Positions 4,116-39,723 of a DNA stretch of 64,000 nucleotides are shown piece by piece. The first letter of the stretch is position 1; each line of letters begins with the position of its first letter. Both the position numbers and the translations under genes were made by a program. Source of the stretch: Candidatus Campbellbacteria bacterium GW2011_OD1_34_28 (GTDB lineage Bacteria > Patescibacteriota > Minisyncoccia > Phycocordibacterales > UBA12079); the NCBI GenBank assembly GCA_001029775.1, contig CP011215.1:490303-554302 (forward strand), in the 5' to 3' direction. The notes below the pieces were generated by a model, which was not told the DNA's origin, searched no databases, and saw nothing but the letters and a program-made list of their open reading frames with translations.

Positions 4116-4919
4116 ATGATTGGAAAAAATTATTATATTTATGTTCTTGCTTTGTTTGTCTTGGCAACTATTTTTTTATTTGGTTTGAAAGAAGAAAAAA
4201 ATTTTGAAAATATGACAACTATTGAAGAAATTGAAGCTCGTATCTCAGGCATAGGTATAAAAAATGAAAACAGAGGTTTTTGGTGGAATAGTGGGGATGG
4301 CTATAATATTTTTGTTCCTGCTGATGAATCTGTGACAATTATAAAGACGGGAGTAGCTCCTGTTGAAAGAGACCTCGTCGCGAGAAAATATTTTGATGAA
4401 GAAGGTTCTTTGGCTGATTTGGTTCTTATGAATCGTCATTTTATTTTCAATATAGAAAATTCTTCAACCAGTACCTCTGATAAAAAATTTTATGATTATG
4501 TTCAATCTTATGAAAATGGTGATGAAAAATGTTCGGTAATAGTAAATCCTGATTTTATGTCATATCCAAAAATTATTGATATGGGATACAGTATGTCGGT
4601 AGTTTGTGGAAATGATTTTGAAAAAGCGAAAGATGAACAGGCCCCTCTTATTGATTCTCTCGGTTTAAAAAATACGAAAAATGTTGTGATTTTGAAAAAC
4701 AGAATGGGAGATTTTTTGAAAGTTGGAATATCGAGTGTTAGAAGTGGGGGATATGCAATTTTAAAAAAAGAAGGAGAAAATTATCGGGTATTATTTAAGG
4801 GACAAGAGGACCCTTTTTGCAATCTGATTAAAGAAGAAAATATTCCAGAAAATATTTTAAAAAGTTTTGGCATCAACGGTTGTTTTATAGATGGTGCAGA
4901 ACATAAATTTTTTGAGTAA
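4116..4919 (+). CDS. hypothetical membrane-anchored/secreted protein
   Basis: 267 aa; N-terminal hydrophobic helix; no recognisable motif. Confidence 0.45.
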   Translation: MIGKNYYIYVLALFVLATIFLFGLKEEKNFENMTTIEEIEARISGIGIKNENRGFWWNSGDGYNIFVPADESVTIIKTGVAPVERDLVARKYFDEEGSLADLVLMNRHFIFNIENSSTSTSDKKFYDYVQSYENGDEKCSVIVNPDFMSYPKIIDMGYSMSVVCGNDFEKAKDEQAPLIDSLGLKNTKNVVILKNRMGDFLKVGISSVRSGGYAILKKEGENYRVLFKGQEDPFCNLIKEENIPENILKSFGINGCFIDGAEHKFFE

Positions 4920-4962
4920 ATTAATTTCAAGGAAAAACAAACCACTCACTACCAATTACAAA

Positions 4963-7900
4963 CTAGTCTAGTTTCTTAACACTATCCACAATCAAACTAG
5001 TTTCGCCATTTCGTTTGGAGATTTTTCCTTTTAGAGCGATTGTTGTGTCTTCTAAAATAATATCTTTGAATTGCTCGTATGTTTTTGGAAAGACAACAGT
5101 TTCCATCGTTCCTGTAAAATCAGAAATTCGCACAAATGCCATTTTTGAAGAACCTTTTTTGGTCAAAATTTCTTTTACTTCATCTACAAGTCCCGCCACA
5201 GCAGTTGTTGTCCCTTCGGGAACAGTTTCGGAAATACTTTTTATATTTTTTCCATCTTTCCCCAAAATATTTCTGTATTTATCCAACGGATGTCCCGAGA
5301 TATACAATCCCAACAATTCTTTTTCCCATGCCAATTTTTCTTTCATCTCGGCAGGGTCAGTCTTTTTTAACTTAAGTTGTGGAACATTACTGTCTTCTTG
5401 CATCAATCCAAACAAAGAGTCTTGATCTTTGTGTTGATGAGCTTTCTCTTTGTTGTATGCCAACAAGTCTTCCATGTTTGCAAGAATTTCTCCTCTTTCT
5501 CCAAAATTATCCATCGCTCCGCATTTTGTCAGCGCTTCTAGTGATTTCTTATTCAAATTTCTGTCTTGTATTCTTTCTAGGAAATCAGCGAGCGATTTAA
5601 ACTTTCCATTTTTTGTTCGCTCTTCAATAATCACATTGGCAATTCCTTCGCCAAAATTTTTGATTGTTTGTAATCCAAAACGAATTGCTTCACTTGGAAG
5701 ACCTGTTTCCAAGTCGGTGGTTTCTACAATAGTAAAGTCGGTAAAACTTTCGTTTATGTTAGGAGAAAGAACTGGGATTTTTAGTCTTTTACATTCACCA
5801 ATTATTTCGGCTACTTTTTCTGTGTCTCCCGAGTCCGCCATCAACAAGGCTGTCATATATTCAATAGGGAAGTTTGCCTTCATGTATGAAGTTTCGTAAG
5901 CCACTCGTCCATAACTGGCGGCGTGCGCTTTGTTAAATCCATAAGCGGCAAAGGTTTCAATCTTTGCCCAAAGCTCGTTGATTGTTTTTTCGCTCACACC
6001 GTTTGCTAAACATCCTTTGTAAAATTTTTCTTTTTGTTCTTGCATCAATTCTGGAATCTTCTTTCCGATTGCTTTTCTAAATTTGTCTACTTCCAACCAA
6101 GAATACCCCGCCAATTCAATCGCGGTTAAAAGAATGTCATCTTGATAGGTGATTACTCCAAAAGATTTATCCAAAATCTTTTCTAGCTTTGGATGTAGAT
6201 ATTTTATTTTTCTTGGATCATTTTTTCTCTCAATATACTCTGGGATAAATTCCATCGGACCTGGACGATACAAGGCAACAGCGGCGTTGATGTCGTTGAT
6301 GCTTGATGGTTTCATATCCATAATTACTTTTGTCATACCTCCACCTGACAACTGAAAACATCCAACAGTGTGTCCTTTGGCAAGCATTTCGTAAGTCTTT
6401 TCGTTGTTTAAATCTACATTATCCAAATCAACACTGATACCGCGGAATTTTTTTACCAATTCAACAGAGTTGGAAAGTATAGAAAGATTTTTGATTCCCA
6501 AGATATCAAATTTTGGTAGGTTTACGACACCGTCACGGTCTCCTGTATACATATCGTATTGAGTAATAATCTGTTCATCTTTATCAAACTGAACAGGACT
6601 GTAATCGTCTATACGAGTAGGGGAAATCAGCACACCAGCAGCGTGAGTAGAAATGTGTCTGGCACAACCTTCAATTTTTTTTGCATATTTAATTATCTCT
6701 TGAACATCTTTGTTTTCTTTATGAAGTTTTCTCAGATCTTCTTCCATCTCGAGAGCCCTTTCTATCGTCATTGGGAAACCCTGTGAACCCATCGGGATTA
6801 ATTTTGCTATCTGATCCCCCAATGTATAGGGGTGTCCCAAAGCACGGGTCACATCTCGCACCGCTCCGCGAGCTGCCATCGTACCGAATGTTCCTATCTG
6901 AGCAACCGCTTTTCCACCATATTTGCTCTTTAGATAGGCAATCACATCATCTCTACGAATGTCGGCAATATCCACGTCGATATCAGGAATACCAGGTCTT
7001 TGTGGATTCATAAATCTTTCAAAAGGTAGTTTTAATTCAAGAGGATTTACTTTCGTAATAAAGTTTAAATAAGAGACAAGACTTCCAGCAGCCGAACCTC
7101 TGGTGTTTGTATAAATACCCACACTTCTTGCGTGTTGAATTAAATCTGCCACGATTAAAAAGTAAGACGAGTAGCCTTTGTTTTTGATGATCTCCAATTC
7201 ATATTCAATACGATCAACAAGTTCTTGTGTTTTTTCTAAGCCTCTTTTTTCTATACCTGCATAGGTTTCTTTTTTTAGTTGTGTGTCATAAGTTTCGCCA
7301 TCTGGTATTGCGATGCTGGGAAAGGTCCAAGAGTCTAGGTCCAATTCCAAATAACACATCTTTAATATTTTTTCTATGTTTTCTATTGCATCGGGTGTGT
7401 CCTTAAAATATTCTTCTGCTTGTTTTGGAGTGATAAAAGAAAAATCGTCGTTTTCTCCACCAAAAGATTTTCCTGCCGATGTTTGTACCGACATTAAAAT
7501 GTTTCTTGCTCGACTGTCTTGTTTATCCAGATAATATACATCATGAGAGGCAACTAACGGGATATCCAATTTTTTTCCAAGATTGATTATTTTTTCTTTC
7601 AGTTCAAGAGACCCTTCTATTTCTGGGTGATGGGTGATTTCTAAATAAAAATTTTTAAATCTCTCCTGATACCATTTTGCGATTTCTTCTGCTTTCGTAA
7701 AGTTGTTTACTTTGAGAGCTTGAGAAATTTCTCCACTAAAATGAGGAGAGATACAAATCATTCCGGCGCTGTGATTTTCTATCAGCTCTTTGTCTATTCT
7801 GGGTTTGTAATAAAAACCTTCCAAATTGGATTTTGTTACCAGCTTGATCAAGTTTTTATAACCGCTTTCGTTTTTGGCAAGCATCACGAGACGACTTCTG

Positions 7901-18587: not shown

Positions 18588-18770
18588 ATGGGTGCTGGTG
18601 AAAATTGTGGTTTTACTCCGATGGACGAAGGGAGTGAAGATGAATCGCCACGTAAAAAACCGTTAGGAATTCCGTTAACGCCGGATATAAAGCGTTTTAG
18701 AGAAGAAATAATAGAACCATGGAAAAAAGCCGGCAGAGATGCCGGTGAAGAAGGGAAATATCCCTGTTAA
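18588..18770 (+). CDS. small hypothetical acidic protein
   Basis: 60 aa; own terminator 18778..18810. Confidence 0.35.
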   Translation: MGAGENCGFTPMDEGSEDESPRKKPLGIPLTPDIKRFREEIIEPWKKAGRDAGEEGKYPC

Positions 18771-18875
18771 TTTTTTAAAGCTCTGTCTTACGACAGGGCT
18801 TTACTGTTTTTAATAAATATTGTATTGTTTTATCTAGAAAATATATCTTTTAAACCAAGTATATAAGAGGGAAAT

Positions 18876-19247
18876 ATGAAGAGTTTATTTTTGGGAATAT
18901 TTTTTGCTTTGTTTATATCGGGGTGTTCAGAAAGAGTAATTTCTGGCCACGGATATTCTAGGACAGTTTTTCAATGTCGTCTTTATGATGGAACAATTAT
19001 TTATGTTGATAATCTTGAAGAGTGCAAGCAAGATAACAAAATAACAGAGGAAGTGATCGCAGGAGAACCATTGTCGATTCATGAAAGTCACGAAGAATCT
19101 CTTTCAAAAGAAGTAGAAGATATAAAAGAACAATATCAAACAGAGGGATGTAATAGTTTCAGAAATTCTGACCCCAAAGGGTGGTGTCGCAGTAGTTGTC
19201 GCAAGGCATACAGCGACACCGGTTTCTGTATGTTATTTGACCCTTAA
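18876..19247 (+). CDS. Cys-rich lipoprotein
   Basis: lipobox LFISGC after signal peptide; own terminator 19247..19276. Confidence 0.55.
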   Translation: MKSLFLGIFFALFISGCSERVISGHGYSRTVFQCRLYDGTIIYVDNLEECKQDNKITEEVIAGEPLSIHESHEESLSKEVEDIKEQYQTEGCNSFRNSDPKGWCRSSCRKAYSDTGFCMLFDP

Positions 19248-19326
19248 AAAAAGGCCGAGCAATCGGCCTTTTACTTATTCACCTTATTCCTTTTGTGTTT
19301 ATATTTAATATCTTATAATTATAAAT

Positions 19327-19641
19327 ATGAAAAATTTTATAAAAATATTATCTTTGGGAGTATTTATGTTTCCGGCAATGGCCCTTGCCGCAGCTCCTAC
19401 AAGTTTACAAGATTTAATAGGAAGATTTCAGGAAATTATCAATATGCTGGTTCCTTTGGCAATGGGATTGGCGGTCTTGGCTTTTATATGGGGCCTTGTC
19501 GTTTATATTTATAACGGAAGTAACCCCGCAAAGAGGAGTGAGGGGTATATGTTTATGGTGTATGGAATCATCGCTTTGTTTGTAATGACAACGATGTGGG
19601 GATTGGTAGCAATTCTTAATGGTACAATTTTAGGTGCATAA
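19327..19641 (+). CDS. VirB2/TrbC-like small membrane protein, paralog 1
   Basis: signal peptide (AMALA|AAP) then two hydrophobic helices with FIWGL and YGIIALFVM motifs shared by the next two ORFs. Confidence 0.5.
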   Translation: MKNFIKILSLGVFMFPAMALAAAPTSLQDLIGRFQEIINMLVPLAMGLAVLAFIWGLVVYIYNGSNPAKRSEGYMFMVYGIIALFVMTTMWGLVAILNGTILGA

Positions 19642-19743
19642 TCGGGTGTAAAACATTATCCACACTTGCCTATCGTTTAGAATTGTTTAGTTTGGTATTA
19701 TTAAGGTAAATTTATAAATTAATATTAATAAATAGTAAAAATT

Positions 19744-20088
19744 ATGAAAAAGTTTTTAGTTATGGGTGGTGTGTCATTGTTGATGCCAGCAGTTGTATTA
19801 GCTGCGGATCTTACAACAATTTTGACAAAGGTTCAACAAATTATTGGTTTGATTGTTCCTATCGTTATTTCTCTTGCTGTTATACTTTTCCTTTGGGGAC
19901 TTATTGGTTTCATCACAAAAGCAGGAGCAGACCAAAAAGCAGCTAGAGAACAAATGATCTGGGGGATCATCATTTTGTTCGTGATGGTGTCTATCTGGGG
20001 ATTGGTGGCTTTGATCCAAAATACATTTGGAATAAGAGGTACAGAAGGAACTGTAACAAATCCGTTGGATAAAATTGAGAACTTCTAA
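19744..20088 (+). CDS. VirB2/TrbC-like small membrane protein, paralog 2
   Basis: signal peptide (VVLA|ADL); FLWGL and WGIIILFVM motifs. Confidence 0.5.
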   Translation: MKKFLVMGGVSLLMPAVVLAADLTTILTKVQQIIGLIVPIVISLAVILFLWGLIGFITKAGADQKAAREQMIWGIIILFVMVSIWGLVALIQNTFGIRGTEGTVTNPLDKIENF

Positions 20089-20093
20089 TTTTT

Positions 20094-20372
20094 ATGGGAG
20101 CAACATCACAATTTGTATCTAATATGAACGAATTTATCATAATACCACTTATTGGATTATTGATAAGTTTGGCAACACTGATATTTGTTTGGGGACTGGT
20201 TGAGTTTATACATGGATCGGGAAGTAACCCAGCAGCCAGAGAGACAGGGAAAAAACATATGATGTGGGGAATTATTGGATTGTTTATAATGGTTTTTGCG
20301 AAAGCAATTATTTCTTTGTTCATAAATTCTTTTGGAATTGATACTGCTCCGATAGATAACGCCTTGCTTTAA
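20094..20372 (+). CDS. VirB2/TrbC-like small membrane protein, paralog 3 (no signal peptide)
   Basis: FVWGL and WGIIGLFIM motifs; begins 6 nt after paralog 2. Confidence 0.45.
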   Translation: MGATSQFVSNMNEFIIIPLIGLLISLATLIFVWGLVEFIHGSGSNPAARETGKKHMMWGIIGLFIMVFAKAIISLFINSFGIDTAPIDNALL

Positions 20373-20390
20373 ATCAGGACTATTTAAACA

Positions 20391-20425
20391 AAAAACCACC
20401 GATAAATTTATCGGTGGTTTTTTGT
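20391..20425 (+). terminator. intrinsic terminator
   Basis: AAAAACCACCGATAAATTTATCGGTGGTTTTTTG. Confidence 0.75.
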
Positions 20426-20506
20426 TTGAAATTATTTAATAAATTTGGTACTATTATGCTCAAATCAATTTTGACTTTTGATTTTTAACTTTTAAATTTC
20501 TATAAT

Positions 20507-20659: not shown

Positions 20660-20741
20660 GTAATATAATGCCGAGGTGGCGAAATTGGTAGACGCACTAG
20701 CCTTAGGAGCTAGCGGGGCAACCCATGGAGGTTCAAGTCCT
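20660..20741 (+). tRNA. tRNA-Leu (anticodon TAG), class II
   Basis: acceptor GCCGAGG/CCTCGGC, anticodon loop CTTAGGA, long variable arm, T-loop TTCAAGT. Confidence 0.85.
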
Positions 20742-20746
20742 CTCCT

Positions 20747-20786
20747 CGGCACAAAAACCAGACCTGAAAGCGACAGCTTTCAGGTC
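20747..20786 (+). terminator. intrinsic terminator
   Basis: CCAGACCTGAAAGC...GCTTTCAGGTCTTTGG + TTTTTG. Confidence 0.65.
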
Positions 20787-20790
20787 TTTG

Positions 20791-20966
20791 GTTTTTGTAG
20801 CCAGAGGAGAGGACTTGAACGGCGGAGGCGGTATACAAGACGAGCGAAGCGAGGGCTTGTCGCCGAGCCGCGTCCAGCAGTACTTAGGCTTTCGGAATCC
20901 GTAGCGAAGCGAAGGATGAGCGAAAGACTTAGTAACTGCGGGACAAGTCCTAACTTTTTAGCACAA
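20791..20966 (+). repeat. tRNA 3'-flank structured repeat element (Leu-TAG copy)
   Basis: GAGGAGAGGACTTGAAC (inverted copy of tRNA-Leu 3' end), core GAACGGCGGAGGCGG, hairpin with GAGCGAAGCGAGG, arm GCCGAGCCGCGTCCAGCAGTACTTAGGC ... AGACTTAGTAACTGCGGGAC, degenerate terminal CAAGTCCT. Confidence 0.6.
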
Positions 20967-20974
20967 AAACTTAG

Positions 20975-21010
20975 ACCCAGAAGCACCAGCTTCTGGGTCT
21001 TTGGTTTTTG
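20975..21010 (+). terminator. intrinsic terminator
   Basis: CCCAGAAGC-ACCA-GCTTCTGGG + TCTTTGGTTTTTG. Confidence 0.6.
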
Positions 21011-37233: not shown

Positions 37234-39723
37234 CTAGCCCAACTTATTTATCCAATACCTATATTGATCACTTTTGTCTTTATAATTTTTAAACAGATTA
37301 AAGCTGGCGGCGGCGTTTGATAATAGACAGATTCCTTTTCCGTTTTCATAAGCTTTACTGACCGCATTTTTCATATTGTTTACTTCAAAAATATTTCTAT
37401 TCTTTACATATTTAACCATTTCTTTTCCTGTTTCCGGAAAGATTATAAAGTTTTTTATCTCCGTTTTTGTTAGATATTTTGCAAAATTATCCAAAGGAAT
37501 ATTTCTGTTTAATCCGCCTAAAATTATTGTATTTACATTTTTTAGAGATTTTATTGATTCAATCGTTGCTTCTGGAATTGTTGCCAGTGAATCATCATAA
37601 AAGATTACACCTTTTTTTTCCATCACTTTTTCTAATCGCAGAGGTAAAGGCTTGAAGGTTTTTATAGAATCTTTTATTTTTTTGTCTGATAGCCCAAATT
37701 GTCTAGCGACGGTATAAGCAATAAAACAATTAAGTTGATTATGTTCTCCCTTCAATTCCGTCTTAAATTTTATTGGTGATTTTTTAAATTTTAATATTTG
37801 AGCTTTTGTTTTGTAATTATGATCGCTTGTATTGATGAATAAATTATTTTTGTTTTGGAAATTTGTGATGTTAAATTTTGCGTCTTTGTATTCATTAAAA
37901 TTTTCGTGATGATTAAGATGGTCGTGAAAAATATTAGTGAGGACTGCAATCTGGGGAGATTTTTCTAAGTGTTCACACTGAAAACTACTCATCTCATAAA
38001 TATAGACATTTTCTTTTTTGTTGTTCTTGTTTTCTAGAAAATTTAGTCCTGTTGTTCCTATATTCCCGATAAGGTATGAACCTTTTAAGATGTGATTAAT
38101 TAAACTTGATATAGTGCTCTTGCCTTTTGTCCCTGTAATTCCAATAACACTTCCTTTAATATTTTCCATAAAGAGGTTCGTGAGGCTTGATATTTTTGTG
38201 TTTTTTGATTTGATTTTTAATTTTATAGTTGGAATTCCGGGAGATTTATAAACAATTTTAAAATCAGCGGGAATTATTAGATTGTTATGAAAATTAATAT
38301 TACTTGGAAATCCTTCCCTCAAATGATCCTCGTCAAATATATGAATTTCTGTGTTTGGTCGTTTTTTAAAATATTCGTACAATGCCTTGCCTTCTGTTCC
38401 GAATCCGGCTATTGCAATTTTTTCTTTTAAAAATTTATTAGGAACCAGATGTTCTGTAGTTTCAGATGTTAAAATTTTGGAGTAATTGCTAGCTTTATCC
38501 GTATTTATTTTTTGTAAGATAGATGGAAGTTTTTTATATTTTTGTTTGGCTAAGTGAAGAGCGAGAAGTGTTTCTTCAATTGTCCCAACACAATCAAAAG
38601 GTTTGTTGTCTTTTTGTCCAACTAATTCTCTATACAAAGGTAATAGAGATTTATCTTTAAATAAATTTTTCCCAAAAATTTGTTCTGTGGTTTTTGAATC
38701 AATGAACGCATTTAATCCCGCAAATACAAAACCGCATTTAGCACATTTCCCACACCATTTTCCTGTTTTTAAACCAGGGTTACAACTTATAAATGAATTA
38801 AAATATTGTGGATATTCAACAAATTTTTTCATTATCTGAATATCATATAAATTTCTTAAAAGAGAAAAATAATTTATATCCGGGGATATGTATTTCTGTA
38901 TATATTCGTGTATTTGTTTTTCAAATTCAAAACTTTTTGAATATTGATGGTTTATTTCTACTCCCAAATATTTTAAGTTGCCTGTGTTAGCACTTCTTTC
39001 ATTCGATAATATTATGTATTTAAAACCATATATTTGAGCCACTAGCGTAGCACTAAATGCGTAAACTGAGGATATCGGGACATGCCCGTTGTAAGCACCT
39101 TTTTTGTTAAGGTTTGTTATTTCTTTGAAGTTTTTTTGTACATCTCTACCTAGAAATATTTTTTTATTATTTTTTGATGTTTTAATGACTTGTTTTGTTG
39201 CTTTATTTGGCTCTATCGCAAACCAAGTAAAATCAAAACCTTTTTCTCTGAGTATTTCTGCACTTACAATACTGTCTTTACCTCCTCCGATTGGAAGCAG
39301 GACGCTCTCTCTTTTGGGGGACATCCGATGCCCCCCAATTTTTAAGTGAGGTGCTTTTGGATCAATCTTTATGTTTATTAAATTTCTGAAATCAATTTTA
39401 TTTTTATAAAAAAATTCACCCAAACCTTTTTCGTAGAGATTTTCCCAGAACTTTATTTGGACTTTATCTAGATACCCAGCTTTTATTGTGATTTTTGGAG
39501 AGCAATATGCTTTGTAGAAACTGGGCAATTCTGCCATCCCTAAATTAAATACAGCTGATGCAATTTTTGATGTATTTTTAACCTTGCTTAAATCTATTTT
39601 TATTTCTGGATTAAAATAAATTTTGTCGTCAAAAGAATAATGAAAAACTATTCTATTTTTCTTTTTATTTATATTAAATCCGTGAAATATGAATTCTTTA
39701 TAGGTTTCTTTTGATTCAGACAT
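37234..39723 (-). CDS. murD: MurD (UDP-MurNAc-L-Ala--D-Glu ligase) fused to an N-terminal QueC/Dph6-like PP-loop ATP-pyrophosphatase domain
   Basis: C-terminal ~430 aa shows MurD motifs (KIVYKSPGIP, GITGTKGKSTI, YEMSSFQCE, DDSLATIPEAT, LSNAAASFNLFKNY); N-terminal ~400 aa has PP-loop PIGGGKDS and a C-x9-C-x2-C-x2-C zinc ribbon ~170 aa downstream. Confidence 0.7.
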   Translation of the reverse strand: MSESKETYKEFIFHGFNINKKKNRIVFHYSFDDKIYFNPEIKIDLSKVKNTSKIASAVFNLGMAELPSFYKAYCSPKITIKAGYLDKVQIKFWENLYEKGLGEFFYKNKIDFRNLINIKIDPKAPHLKIGGHRMSPKRESVLLPIGGGKDSIVSAEILREKGFDFTWFAIEPNKATKQVIKTSKNNKKIFLGRDVQKNFKEITNLNKKGAYNGHVPISSVYAFSATLVAQIYGFKYIILSNERSANTGNLKYLGVEINHQYSKSFEFEKQIHEYIQKYISPDINYFSLLRNLYDIQIMKKFVEYPQYFNSFISCNPGLKTGKWCGKCAKCGFVFAGLNAFIDSKTTEQIFGKNLFKDKSLLPLYRELVGQKDNKPFDCVGTIEETLLALHLAKQKYKKLPSILQKINTDKASNYSKILTSETTEHLVPNKFLKEKIAIAGFGTEGKALYEYFKKRPNTEIHIFDEDHLREGFPSNINFHNNLIIPADFKIVYKSPGIPTIKLKIKSKNTKISSLTNLFMENIKGSVIGITGTKGKSTISSLINHILKGSYLIGNIGTTGLNFLENKNNKKENVYIYEMSSFQCEHLEKSPQIAVLTNIFHDHLNHHENFNEYKDAKFNITNFQNKNNLFINTSDHNYKTKAQILKFKKSPIKFKTELKGEHNQLNCFIAYTVARQFGLSDKKIKDSIKTFKPLPLRLEKVMEKKGVIFYDDSLATIPEATIESIKSLKNVNTIILGGLNRNIPLDNFAKYLTKTEIKNFIIFPETGKEMVKYVKNRNIFEVNNMKNAVSKAYENGKGICLLSNAAASFNLFKNYKDKSDQYRYWINKLG

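What the first reader, a model, noticed from the sequence alone, without database searches (positions are those of the whole stretch)
19327..20372. Three tandem paralogs of ~100-aa, two-helix membrane proteins resembling VirB2/TrbC-type pilins, next to a Cys-rich lipoprotein
ORFs 19327..19641, 19744..20088 and 20094..20372 share a signal peptide (the first two), a first hydrophobic helix ending in F(I/L/V)WGL, a short polar loop and a second helix with WGII(A/I/G)LF(V/I)M. This is the size and topology of T4SS pilins (VirB2/TrbC), not type IV (PilA) or Flp pilins. No VirB4, VirB6 or VirD4 genes are in this window. They are preceded by a lipoprotein (18876..19247), which might be a VirB7-like partner, but that is speculative. 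Surface-appendage or T4SS components matter for epibiotic lifestyles if this is a Patescibacterium.
Basis: partly seen in the sequence, partly recalled or inferred. Interest (0 to 1): 0.55.

Follow-up and report, generated by a model that had tools for sequence, protein, structure and literature searches.

The report
VirB2-like pilin trio in Campbellbacteria

Summary
The three ORFs exist exactly as described and are true paralogs (BLASTP E 1e-12 to 2e-19). All three pass the curated cut-off of Pfam PF18895 (T4SS_pilin). A profile of the family aligns with TrbC/VirB2-positive relatives (hhalign 97.6%), and its best solved-structure match is the pKM101 VirB2 pilin TraM. AlphaFold models show a two-helix hairpin.

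The window is 100% identical to Candidatus Campbellbacteria assembly GCA_003456895.1 over 20.3 kb. A 2025 survey lists that assembly as VirB4-positive. I found no T4SS machinery gene within 84 kb of the array.

Tandem VirB2-like pilin arrays in Patescibacteria are already published (Wang 2023; Quinonero-Coronel 2025), so this is a new member of a known kind.

- **Conserved order:** the trio keeps the order of a wider Paceibacteria array, ending in a short leaderless member (57 of 82 arrays).
- **Distance from virB4:** none of the 80 related loci has a VirB4-like gene within 10 kb.
- **Local synteny:** in this clade the trio is followed by tRNA-Leu and lemA.
- **Lipoprotein:** it is lineage-specific, absent from related arrays, and separated from the pilins by a terminator-like hairpin. 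The VirB7 idea is not supported.

The parts
19327..19641 (+). p1: VirB2-like pilin (PF18895) with a predicted Sec signal peptide (about residues 1-21) and a two-helix hairpin
   Evidence: PF18895 33.5 bits against a cut-off of 26.6. AF2 model pLDDT 85.5 with helices 2-21, 27-62 and 67-100. dN/dS 0.20.
19744..20088 (+). p2: VirB2-like pilin (PF18895) with a predicted signal peptide, a hairpin and a 20-residue polar C-terminal tail
   Evidence: PF18895 26.9 bits, just above the cut-off. It scores 128 bits against the family HMM built here. dN/dS 0.23.
20094..20372 (+). p3: short leaderless VirB2-like pilin. It is the conserved terminal member type of these arrays.
   Evidence: PF18895 41.4 bits. 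AF2 model pLDDT 85.3 with helices 2-44 and 46-79. In 57 of 82 arrays the last member cannot hold a signal peptide, against 24 of 204 other members. dN/dS 0.08.
20383..20430 (+). Intrinsic terminator closing the pilin transcription unit
   Evidence: A 20-22 bp stem followed by a T run; -29.3 kcal/mol, z -9.3.
19314..19319 (+). TATAAT -10-like box 8 nt before the p1 start codon. It may be the trio's own promoter, giving a leaderless mRNA (inferred).
   Evidence: Read from the sequence. Only 10 of 50 window genes have a Shine-Dalgarno motif, and many have TATAAT 6-12 nt before the ATG.
19249..19272 (+). Terminator-like hairpin directly after the lipoprotein stop codon, separating that gene from p1
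   Evidence: -15.7 kcal/mol, z -5.5, followed by UUUU.
18876..19247 (+). Cys-rich lipoprotein (lipobox FISGC). It is an adjacent, lineage-specific gene and is probably not a component of the pilin system.
   Evidence: No Pfam, NCBIfam, PHROGs or PDB match. Only one homologous cluster among 1.84 billion representatives. Absent before the same trio in L054, L092 and L093.
20670..20752 (+). tRNA-Leu(UAG), a conserved downstream neighbour of the trio in this Campbellbacteria clade (a synteny marker, not a functional part)
   Evidence: ARAGORN and Rfam. The same tRNA follows the array in L010, L054, L092 and L093.

Best explanation
The three genes encode VirB2-like pilin subunits of the Patescibacteria-type (monoderm, MPF-FATA-related) type IV secretion system.

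Shown here:
- They belong to Pfam PF18895.
- They are homologous to TrbC/VirB2-positive pilins.
- They fold as two-helix hairpins joined by a short, positively charged loop.
- They are conserved under purifying selection.
- They form one terminator-bounded unit.

Inferred mechanism:
- p1 and p2 are exported through Sec, and signal peptidase I removes their leaders.
- All three sit in the cytoplasmic membrane with the loop inside and both ends outside.
- A VirB4-powered T4SS encoded elsewhere in the genome extracts and polymerises them into a pilus or conduit that contacts a host cell.

The fixed gene order and the conserved leaderless last member suggest specialised roles, for example major subunits plus a base or initiator subunit, rather than interchangeable variants.
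For: - **Pfam:** PF18895 is above the gathering cut-off for all three proteins.
- **Homologues:** 471 were found, almost all PF18895, from Patescibacteria. NCBI names several of them 'pilin'.
- **Solved structures:** the best PDB match of the family profile is TraM, the pKM101 VirB2 pilin in a pilus structure (8cw4, E 0.0027). The match covers the leader-peptidase site and the first helix.
- **Bridge to TrbC/VirB2:** array members upstream in related genomes hit both PF18895 (39 of 39) and PF04956 TrbC (31 of 39). They align with the window-type profile at 97.6% probability, E 3.5e-12, over 93 columns.
- **Fold:** AF2 models are hairpins with pLDDT about 85. The loops carry 2-3 K/R residues.
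- **Outward-facing N-terminus:** related arrays hold pilin domains fused after Big_5 or other large N-terminal domains, consistent with an extracellular N-terminus and an adhesive surface structure.
- **T4SS in the same genome:** the source assembly is listed as VirB4-positive.
- **Experimental precedent:** in Southlakia the predicted pilin series inside the T4SS cluster is essential by Tn-seq.
- **Selection:** dN/dS is 0.08-0.23.
- **Conserved architecture:** order and the leaderless terminal member recur across arrays.
Against: - No T4SS machinery gene lies within 84 kb of the array.
- None of the 80 related array loci has a VirB4-like neighbour within 10 kb.
- I did not see the VirB4 gene of this genome myself. 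Its presence rests on a published table.
- PF04956 itself is not matched by p1-p3, and p2 clears the PF18895 cut-off by only 0.3 bits.
- Foldseek against the PDB gave no significant or pilin-specific match, because helical hairpins are not distinctive folds.
- The TraM match covers only the leader and the first helix.
- p3 has no signal peptide, unlike classical VirB2, TrbC or TraA.
- None of the papers read here reports a filament made of PF18895 proteins; they describe the pilus as a possibility.
Confidence: 0.65

Rival explanations
1. The proteins are homologous to T4SS pilins but work independently of the T4SS. They would be membrane-resident hairpin proteins, for example small envelope or membrane-organisation subunits, possibly working with neighbours such as the sugar-binding-protein-like anchor in other Paceibacteria.
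For: The arrays are consistently far from virB4, both here and in 80 related loci. In 70 of 82 loci the array follows an N-anchored SBP_bac_1/8 protein and a methyltransferase, not secretion genes. In this clade the trio is always followed by tRNA-Leu and lemA-htpX. No pilus has been demonstrated.
Against: In Saccharimonadia the same kind of pilin series lies inside the T4SS cluster and is essential. In 1135 of 1948 VirB4-positive assemblies a VirB2-like gene lies near virB4. Fusions to Ig-like extracellular domains suggest an exposed structure. Scattered components are common in small genomes, so distance from virB4 is weak evidence.
Confidence: 0.2
2. The three paralogs are interchangeable alternative major pilins, kept for host-range or antigenic variation. 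This is what has been proposed for VirB2 paralog arrays in Bartonella and Anaplasma, and suggested for Patescibacteria.
For: The paralogs share only 38-41% identity. The published survey offers this interpretation. Copy number of the signal-peptide-bearing members varies from 1 to 4 among genomes.
Against: The order is conserved. The commonest last-three pattern is p1-like, p2-like, p3-like, and the last member is a distinct leaderless type in 57 of 82 arrays. p3 is the most constrained gene (dN/dS 0.08). One terminator-bounded unit implies co-expression rather than a choice among genes. No repeat or recombination cassette was seen.
Confidence: 0.12
3. They are holins, bacteriocin-immunity proteins or other unrelated two-helix membrane proteins, and the pilin match is a hydrophobic-composition artefact.
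For: Small two-TM proteins attract weak matches to many families, for example Phage_holin_2_4 at E 0.29 and CrgA at E 0.04. Foldseek is non-specific for this fold.
Against: No PHROGs holin or other annotated phage family matches, and there is no phage or toxin context. PF18895 is the only family above its cut-off for all three. The profile-profile match with TrbC-positive proteins covers the whole hairpin at E 3.5e-12. Conserved polar and aromatic positions (F53, W55/G56, M77, G80) are shared by 103 homologues.
Confidence: 0.03

Closest known systems
VirB2-like pilin arrays of Patescibacteria T4SS (Southlakia epibionticum SEML1_0006-0019, Wang et al. 2023, PMC10633639; survey by Quinonero-Coronel et al. 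2025, PMC12102498)
   Same: Same Pfam family (PF18895), same phylum, and tandem divergent paralogs. The published within-array identity is a mean of 25% and a maximum of 54%; here it is 38-41%. The genome carries VirB4 according to that survey.
   Different: The published arrays were scored near virB4 (legend of Fig. S9). This trio has no T4SS gene within 84 kb. It is a three-gene version lacking the Cys-rich and TrbC-like members that precede such genes in most related Paceibacteria arrays.
Classical conjugative pilins VirB2 (Ti plasmid), TrbC (RP4), TraM (pKM101) and TraA (F); Pfam PF04956 TrbC/VIRB2
   Same: Size of about 70-90 mature residues, a cleavable leader (p1, p2), a two-helix hairpin with a basic loop, and a weak but top-ranked sequence match to TraM.
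   Different: No direct PF04956 match. The host is a monoderm with no VirB7/9/10 outer-membrane core. One member is leaderless. They are not encoded next to virB3/virB4. Cyclisation or lipid co-assembly is unknown.
Pilin-like small proteins of monoderm mobile elements: Maff2 (PF12750) and the Mbov_0395/MMCAP2_0565 ICE pilin-like protein (NF045849)
   Same: Weak similarity for p3 to Maff2 (E 3.4e-4) and for all three to NF045849 (E 1.7e-4 to 6e-3). Both families are two-helix proteins of Gram-positive-type conjugation systems.
   Different: All scores are below the curated cut-offs. There is no mobile-element context, and tblastn of p3 found no plasmid match.

Membership tests
Pfam PF18895 T4SS_pilin | Whole-protein HMM score at or above the gathering cut-off (26.6 bits) | tested here: met
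   33.5, 26.9 and 41.4 bits for p1, p2 and p3. p2 is marginal, but it scores 128 bits against an HMM of 103 homologues.
Pfam PF18895 T4SS_pilin | Helical hairpin of about 70 residues: two hydrophobic helices joined by a short polar loop | tested here: met
   AF2 models with pLDDT 85.5 and 85.3; hydropathy segments and loops.
TrbC/VirB2 conjugative pilins (PF04956) | Direct match to the PF04956 profile | tested here: not met
   No PF04956 hit at E <= 1 for any of the three.
TrbC/VirB2 conjugative pilins (PF04956) | Homology detectable through intermediates or solved pilins | tested here: met
   hhalign gives 97.6% probability, E 3.5e-12, to array members of which 31 of 39 hit PF04956. The top PDB match is TraM 8cw4 at E 0.0027.
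TrbC/VirB2 conjugative pilins (PF04956) | N-terminal Sec leader removed by signal peptidase I | tested here: inconclusive
   p1 and p2 have a hydrophobic leader with A-x-A-like sites, judged by eye and hydropathy because no SignalP was available. p3 has none.
TrbC/VirB2 conjugative pilins (PF04956) | Encoded with VirB3, VirB4 and VirB6 machinery | tested here: not met
   None in the window or 10 kb beyond either end. VirB4 is reported elsewhere in the assembly only by literature.
TrbC/VirB2 conjugative pilins (PF04956) | Assembles into an extracellular pilus filament | not testable with these tools
   This needs cryo-EM or cryo-ET, or surface proteomics.
Patescibacteria VirB2-like pilin array (Wang 2023; Quinonero-Coronel 2025) | Two or more tandem, sequence-divergent VirB2-like genes in a VirB4-positive Patescibacteria genome | tested here: met
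   Three tandem PF18895 genes. The window is identical to GCA_003456895.1, which is listed as VirB4 'Yes'.
Patescibacteria VirB2-like pilin array (Wang 2023; Quinonero-Coronel 2025) | Array located near virB4 (within 20 genes) | tested here: not met
   No VirB4-like ORF across about 84 kb around the array.
VirB7 lipoprotein (for ORF 18876-19247) | Small lipoprotein conserved with the T4SS, partnering the VirB9/VirB10 outer-membrane core | tested here: not met
   A lipobox is present, but there is no family match. Only one homologous cluster was found worldwide. The gene is absent before the same trio in L054, L092 and L093, and a terminator-like hairpin separates it from p1. Patescibacteria are monoderm, so no VirB9/10 core is expected (literature).
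Type IV (PilA) and Flp pilins | Class III leader with G/(F,M)TLxE processed by a prepilin peptidase, and a single N-terminal helix | tested here: not met
   No such motif in the sequences, and each protein has two hydrophobic helices.
Phage holins | Match to a holin family, or a lysis-cassette context | tested here: not met
   No PHROGs hit of known function. Pfam Phage_holin_2_4 reaches only E 0.29. The context is housekeeping genes.

The most novel reading that the evidence does not exclude
In Paceibacteria the VirB2-like genes may form an ancient operon with a fixed order, kept at chromosomal sites far from virB4. The order is a Cys-rich member that is sometimes fused to an adhesin-like domain, then a TrbC-like member, then one to four leader-bearing members, then a leaderless terminal member. 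It is usually preceded by an anchored sugar-binding-protein-like gene. Its products would build a filament of several subunit types with specialised tip, shaft and base roles, or even a structure that does not depend on the T4SS. They would not be interchangeable variants. The Campbellbacteria trio in this window would then be a minimal shaft-plus-base version, moved to a new site next to tRNA-Leu and lemA.
Probability: 0.25. Interest if true: 0.6.

Novelty: new member of a known kind. Interest (0 to 1): 0.3.

Why it matters
Pilins on a Gram-positive-type T4SS are one of the unusual traits of Patescibacteria, and in the one species tested genetically they are essential for epibiotic growth. 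This locus adds a clean Paceibacteria example. It also shows that in this class the pilin genes form a conserved, ordered array encoded far from virB4, ending in a leaderless member. That points to specialised subunit roles and gives concrete targets for proteomics, cryo-ET or genetics. It does not change the current picture.

Tried and rejected
- **Foldseek against the PDB:** I searched both AF2 models, p1 full length and the leaderless p3. There was no hit at E <= 0.001, and the top hits were unrelated helical hairpins such as chemoreceptors, channels and pore-forming toxins. This does not discriminate.
- **Direct PF04956 (TrbC/VirB2) match:** absent for p1-p3.
- **Other libraries:** NCBIfam gave only sub-threshold hits to the Mycoplasma ICE pilin-like family. 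PHROGs gave nothing useful. tblastn of p3 against 72,556 plasmids found nothing.
- **B-type profile against the PDB:** no match.
- **Lipoprotein:** Pfam, NCBIfam, PHROGs and PDB were all empty. An exhaustive HMMER search of 1.84 billion representatives found one relative only. The VirB7 idea is rejected.
- **Search for T4SS ATPases:**
  - Pfam on all unassigned larger window ORFs found a Mur-ligase-like protein, MYG1, RmuC, a methyltransferase, an FtsQ-like protein and a LysM-DPBB protein.
  - Extending 10 kb beyond both window ends found none.
  - I could not fetch the rest of the genome. The paper's component table was truncated in storage, so the position of VirB4 is unknown.
- **Operon idea:** I first thought the lipoprotein and the pilins formed one operon, because the scan found terminators only at 18776-18803 and 20383-20430. 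Folding then showed a stable hairpin plus U-run right after the lipoprotein stop, so I dropped that idea.
- **Rfam on the tRNA-Leu to lemA spacer:** only chance-level hits.

Full report
**Observation**

The three ORFs are at the stated coordinates on the + strand: 19327-19641 (p1, 104 aa), 19744-20088 (p2, 114 aa) and 20094-20372 (p3, 92 aa).
- They align over nearly their whole length at 38-41% identity, with pairwise BLASTP E-values of 2.4e-19, 1.2e-12 and 3e-13.
- p1 and p2 carry an N-terminal hydrophobic leader ending in A-x-A-like sites. p3 starts 5 nt after the p2 stop and has no leader.
- Against an 88%-identical relative (L010) the genes show purifying selection: dN/dS is 0.20, 0.23 and 0.08 for p1-p3 and 0.24 for the upstream lipoprotein. 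All four are therefore real genes.

**Family assignment**

- All three proteins pass the curated cut-off of Pfam PF18895 'T4SS_pilin' (33.5, 26.9 and 41.4 bits against 26.6). No other family comes close.
- NCBIfam gives only sub-threshold hits to the Mycoplasma ICE 'pilin-like conjugal transfer protein'. PHROGs gives nothing of known function.
- A profile search of 5.8 billion proteins found 471 relatives. Almost all carry PF18895 and come from Patescibacteria, and NCBI names several of them 'pilin'.
The link can still be made in two ways.
  - A profile of 103 family members has as its best solved-structure match TraM, the VirB2 homologue of pKM101 in the pilus structure 8cw4 (E 0.0027). The aligned part covers the leader-peptidase site and the first helix.
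  - In related genomes the same arrays contain an upstream member type. All 39 sampled copies hit PF18895 and 31 of 39 hit PF04956. That type aligns with the window-type profile at 97.6% hhalign probability, E 3.5e-12, across the whole hairpin.

**Structure**

- AlphaFold2 with these alignments gives confident models (pLDDT 85.5 and 85.3). p1 is a leader helix plus a hairpin of helices 27-62 and 67-100. p3 is a hairpin of helices 2-44 and 46-79.
- The connecting loops carry 2-3 Lys/Arg residues. By the positive-inside rule this places the loop in the cytoplasm and both termini outside, as in VirB2 and TraA (established knowledge).
- Foldseek against the PDB returned no significant or pilin-specific match for either model. 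I read this as non-informative, since two-helix hairpins are not distinctive folds.

**Organism and the rest of the secretion system**

- Window positions 9327-29641 are 100% identical to 20,315 nt of contig DMOL01000003.1 of GCA_003456895.1, Candidatus Campbellbacteria (class Paceibacteria), from groundwater.
- Table S1 of Quinonero-Coronel et al. 2025 (PMC12102498) lists this assembly (736,375 bp, 751 CDS) with 'Presence of VirB4: Yes'. I could not see that gene myself.
- Within the window I found no VirB4, VirB6 or VirD4.
  - The unassigned larger ORFs are a Mur-ligase-like protein, MYG1, RmuC, a methyltransferase, an FtsQ-like protein and a LysM-DPBB protein.
  - The 10 kb beyond each end hold only housekeeping genes.
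  - HMMs of both pilin types find only p1-p3 across these 84 kb.

**Context in relatives**

A scan of one genome per species returned 80 loci, each with an array of 3-8 pilin-like ORFs. Clustering the neighbours shows one dominant arrangement:
- gyrA, in 57 loci;
- a UbiE-like methyltransferase, in 67 loci;
- a protein of about 434 aa with an N-terminal anchor and an SBP_bac_1/8 domain, closest to sugar-binding proteins, in 70 of 82 loci;
- a Cys-rich pilin, sometimes fused behind a Big_5 or larger domain;
- a TrbC-like pilin;
- one to four leader-bearing PF18895 pilins;
- a short final member;
- rbfA and infB on the other strand.

No locus has a VirB4-like neighbour. The final member is a distinct type. 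In 57 of 82 arrays it cannot hold a signal peptide even when read back to the previous stop codon, against 24 of 204 other members. It is most similar to p3 in 49 of 79 complete arrays, and the commonest last-three pattern is p1-like, p2-like, p3-like.

The window therefore holds the last three positions of this conserved order, without the upstream members or the SBP-like gene. None of those occurs anywhere in the 64 kb. In the 35%-GC Campbellbacteria clade (L010, L054, L092, L093) the same trio is always followed by tRNA-Leu(UAG) and lemA, while the upstream side varies between rhodanese and mreBCD-PBP2.

**The lipoprotein**

ORF 18876-19247 has a lipobox and seven cysteines.
- It matches no Pfam, NCBIfam, PHROGs or PDB entry.
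- It has a single homologous cluster among 1.84 billion representative proteins.
- It is missing before the same trio in L054, L092 and L093.
- A stable hairpin with a U-run (19249-19272, -15.7 kcal/mol, z -5.5) follows its stop codon. A TATAAT box lies 8 nt before the p1 ATG.
- It is a recent, lineage-specific neighbour, not a VirB7-like partner. The Patescibacteria T4SS is of the monoderm type, which lacks the VirB7/9/10 core.

The pilin trio itself has no significant structure between p1 and p2, and a 5-nt gap between p2 and p3. It ends in a strong terminator (20383-20430, -29.3 kcal/mol).

**Mechanism**

What is shown: family membership, hairpin fold, conservation, co-linear organisation and the published VirB4 call for the genome.

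What is inferred:
- Sec export and leader cleavage of p1 and p2;
- membrane insertion with the loop in the cytoplasm;
- extraction and polymerisation by a VirB4-driven, MPF-FATA-like machine encoded elsewhere, giving a pilus or conduit towards a host cell.

In Southlakia epibionticum the predicted pilin series inside the T4SS cluster is essential for epibiotic growth. Reviews treat a pilus on this monoderm system as likely but unproven. Three points suggest specialised subunit roles rather than interchangeable variants: the conserved order, the leaderless and most constrained last member, and the fusions to extracellular domains in relatives. I put 0.65 on T4SS-dependent pilin function, 0.2 on a T4SS-independent membrane role, 0.12 on interchangeable variants and 0.03 on unrelated two-helix proteins such as holins.

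**Comparison and novelty**

Tandem VirB2-like pilin arrays in Patescibacteria are published: 441 arrays of 2-11 genes in 383 assemblies, with a mean within-array identity of 25%. Those arrays were scored near virB4. This locus is a new member of that known kind.

Three points appear to go beyond the papers read here: the arrays in Paceibacteria lie far from virB4, their order is fixed with a leaderless terminal member, and an SBP-like gene is a frequent upstream neighbour. These are modest extensions and rest on 80 loci with only 10 kb of flank each. Interest 0.3.

Noticed in passing
window 20753-21010 (+), between tRNA-Leu and lemA: A GC-rich, strongly structured element (-123.9 kcal/mol, z -10.2) with no Rfam match. 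Two near-identical terminator-like hairpins (20760-20787 and 20973-21000) flank a core closed by a long-range helix AGGACTTG...CAAGTCCT. The 3' strand of that helix copies the T-arm and 3' end of the adjacent tRNA-Leu. The helix and position are conserved in L010, L092 and L093, while the interior varies. It could be a tRNA-derived small RNA or an integration scar.
   Followed up: partly
window, all gene starts (e.g. 8598, 13886, 16834, 19327, 45749, 55506): Only 10 of 50 genes have a Shine-Dalgarno-like motif. Many have a TATAAT-like box 6-12 nt before the ATG, which suggests widespread leaderless mRNAs in this Campbellbacteria genome.
   Followed up: partly
L033:4510-7815 and 69 other loci (e.g. 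L025, L052, L053): The conserved Paceibacteria block runs gyrA, UbiE-like methyltransferase, a 434-aa N-anchored SBP_bac_1/8 protein (closest solved relatives are oligosaccharide-binding proteins), then the pilin array. No ABC permease gene is apparent among the recurrent or called neighbours. An orphan sugar-binding protein directly upstream of the pilin genes is unexplained.
   Followed up: partly
L025:5330-6325; L047:1472-4261 and 4242-6407; L022:4722-6347: Pilin hairpins sit at the C-terminus of much larger secreted proteins: a Big_5 Ig-like domain in L025, and 541-929 aa proteins elsewhere. These could be adhesin-bearing or tip pilins.
   Followed up: partly
L063:7905-8942; L067:2494-3540; L031:581-1453: Single ORFs of 285-342 aa score 182-246 bits against the pilin HMM and have 6-8 hydrophobic segments. 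They look like two or three pilin units fused in one reading frame, either real fusions or assembly frameshifts.
   Followed up: no
window 18588-18770 (+): A 60-aa acidic ORF ending in a Cys has an SD motif and lies between two terminator-like hairpins. A 58-60 aa gene is called at the same position, between rhodanese and the pilin array or lipoprotein, in L001-L006 and L093, though absent from L054. No family match.
   Followed up: no
window 37234-39723 (-): An 829-aa protein whose Mur-ligase middle and C-terminal domains occupy only residues 529-793. The first ~500 residues match no Pfam family.
   Followed up: no
table (P0001, P0003): Pilin clusters matching p2 and p3 (P0003 carries the same 92-aa length and an adjacent locus tag from this assembly) are recorded on a contig of 1,443,026 bp, about twice the 736-kb size of this genome's assembly. 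This may be a chimeric or concatenated assembly, or a larger relative.
   Followed up: no
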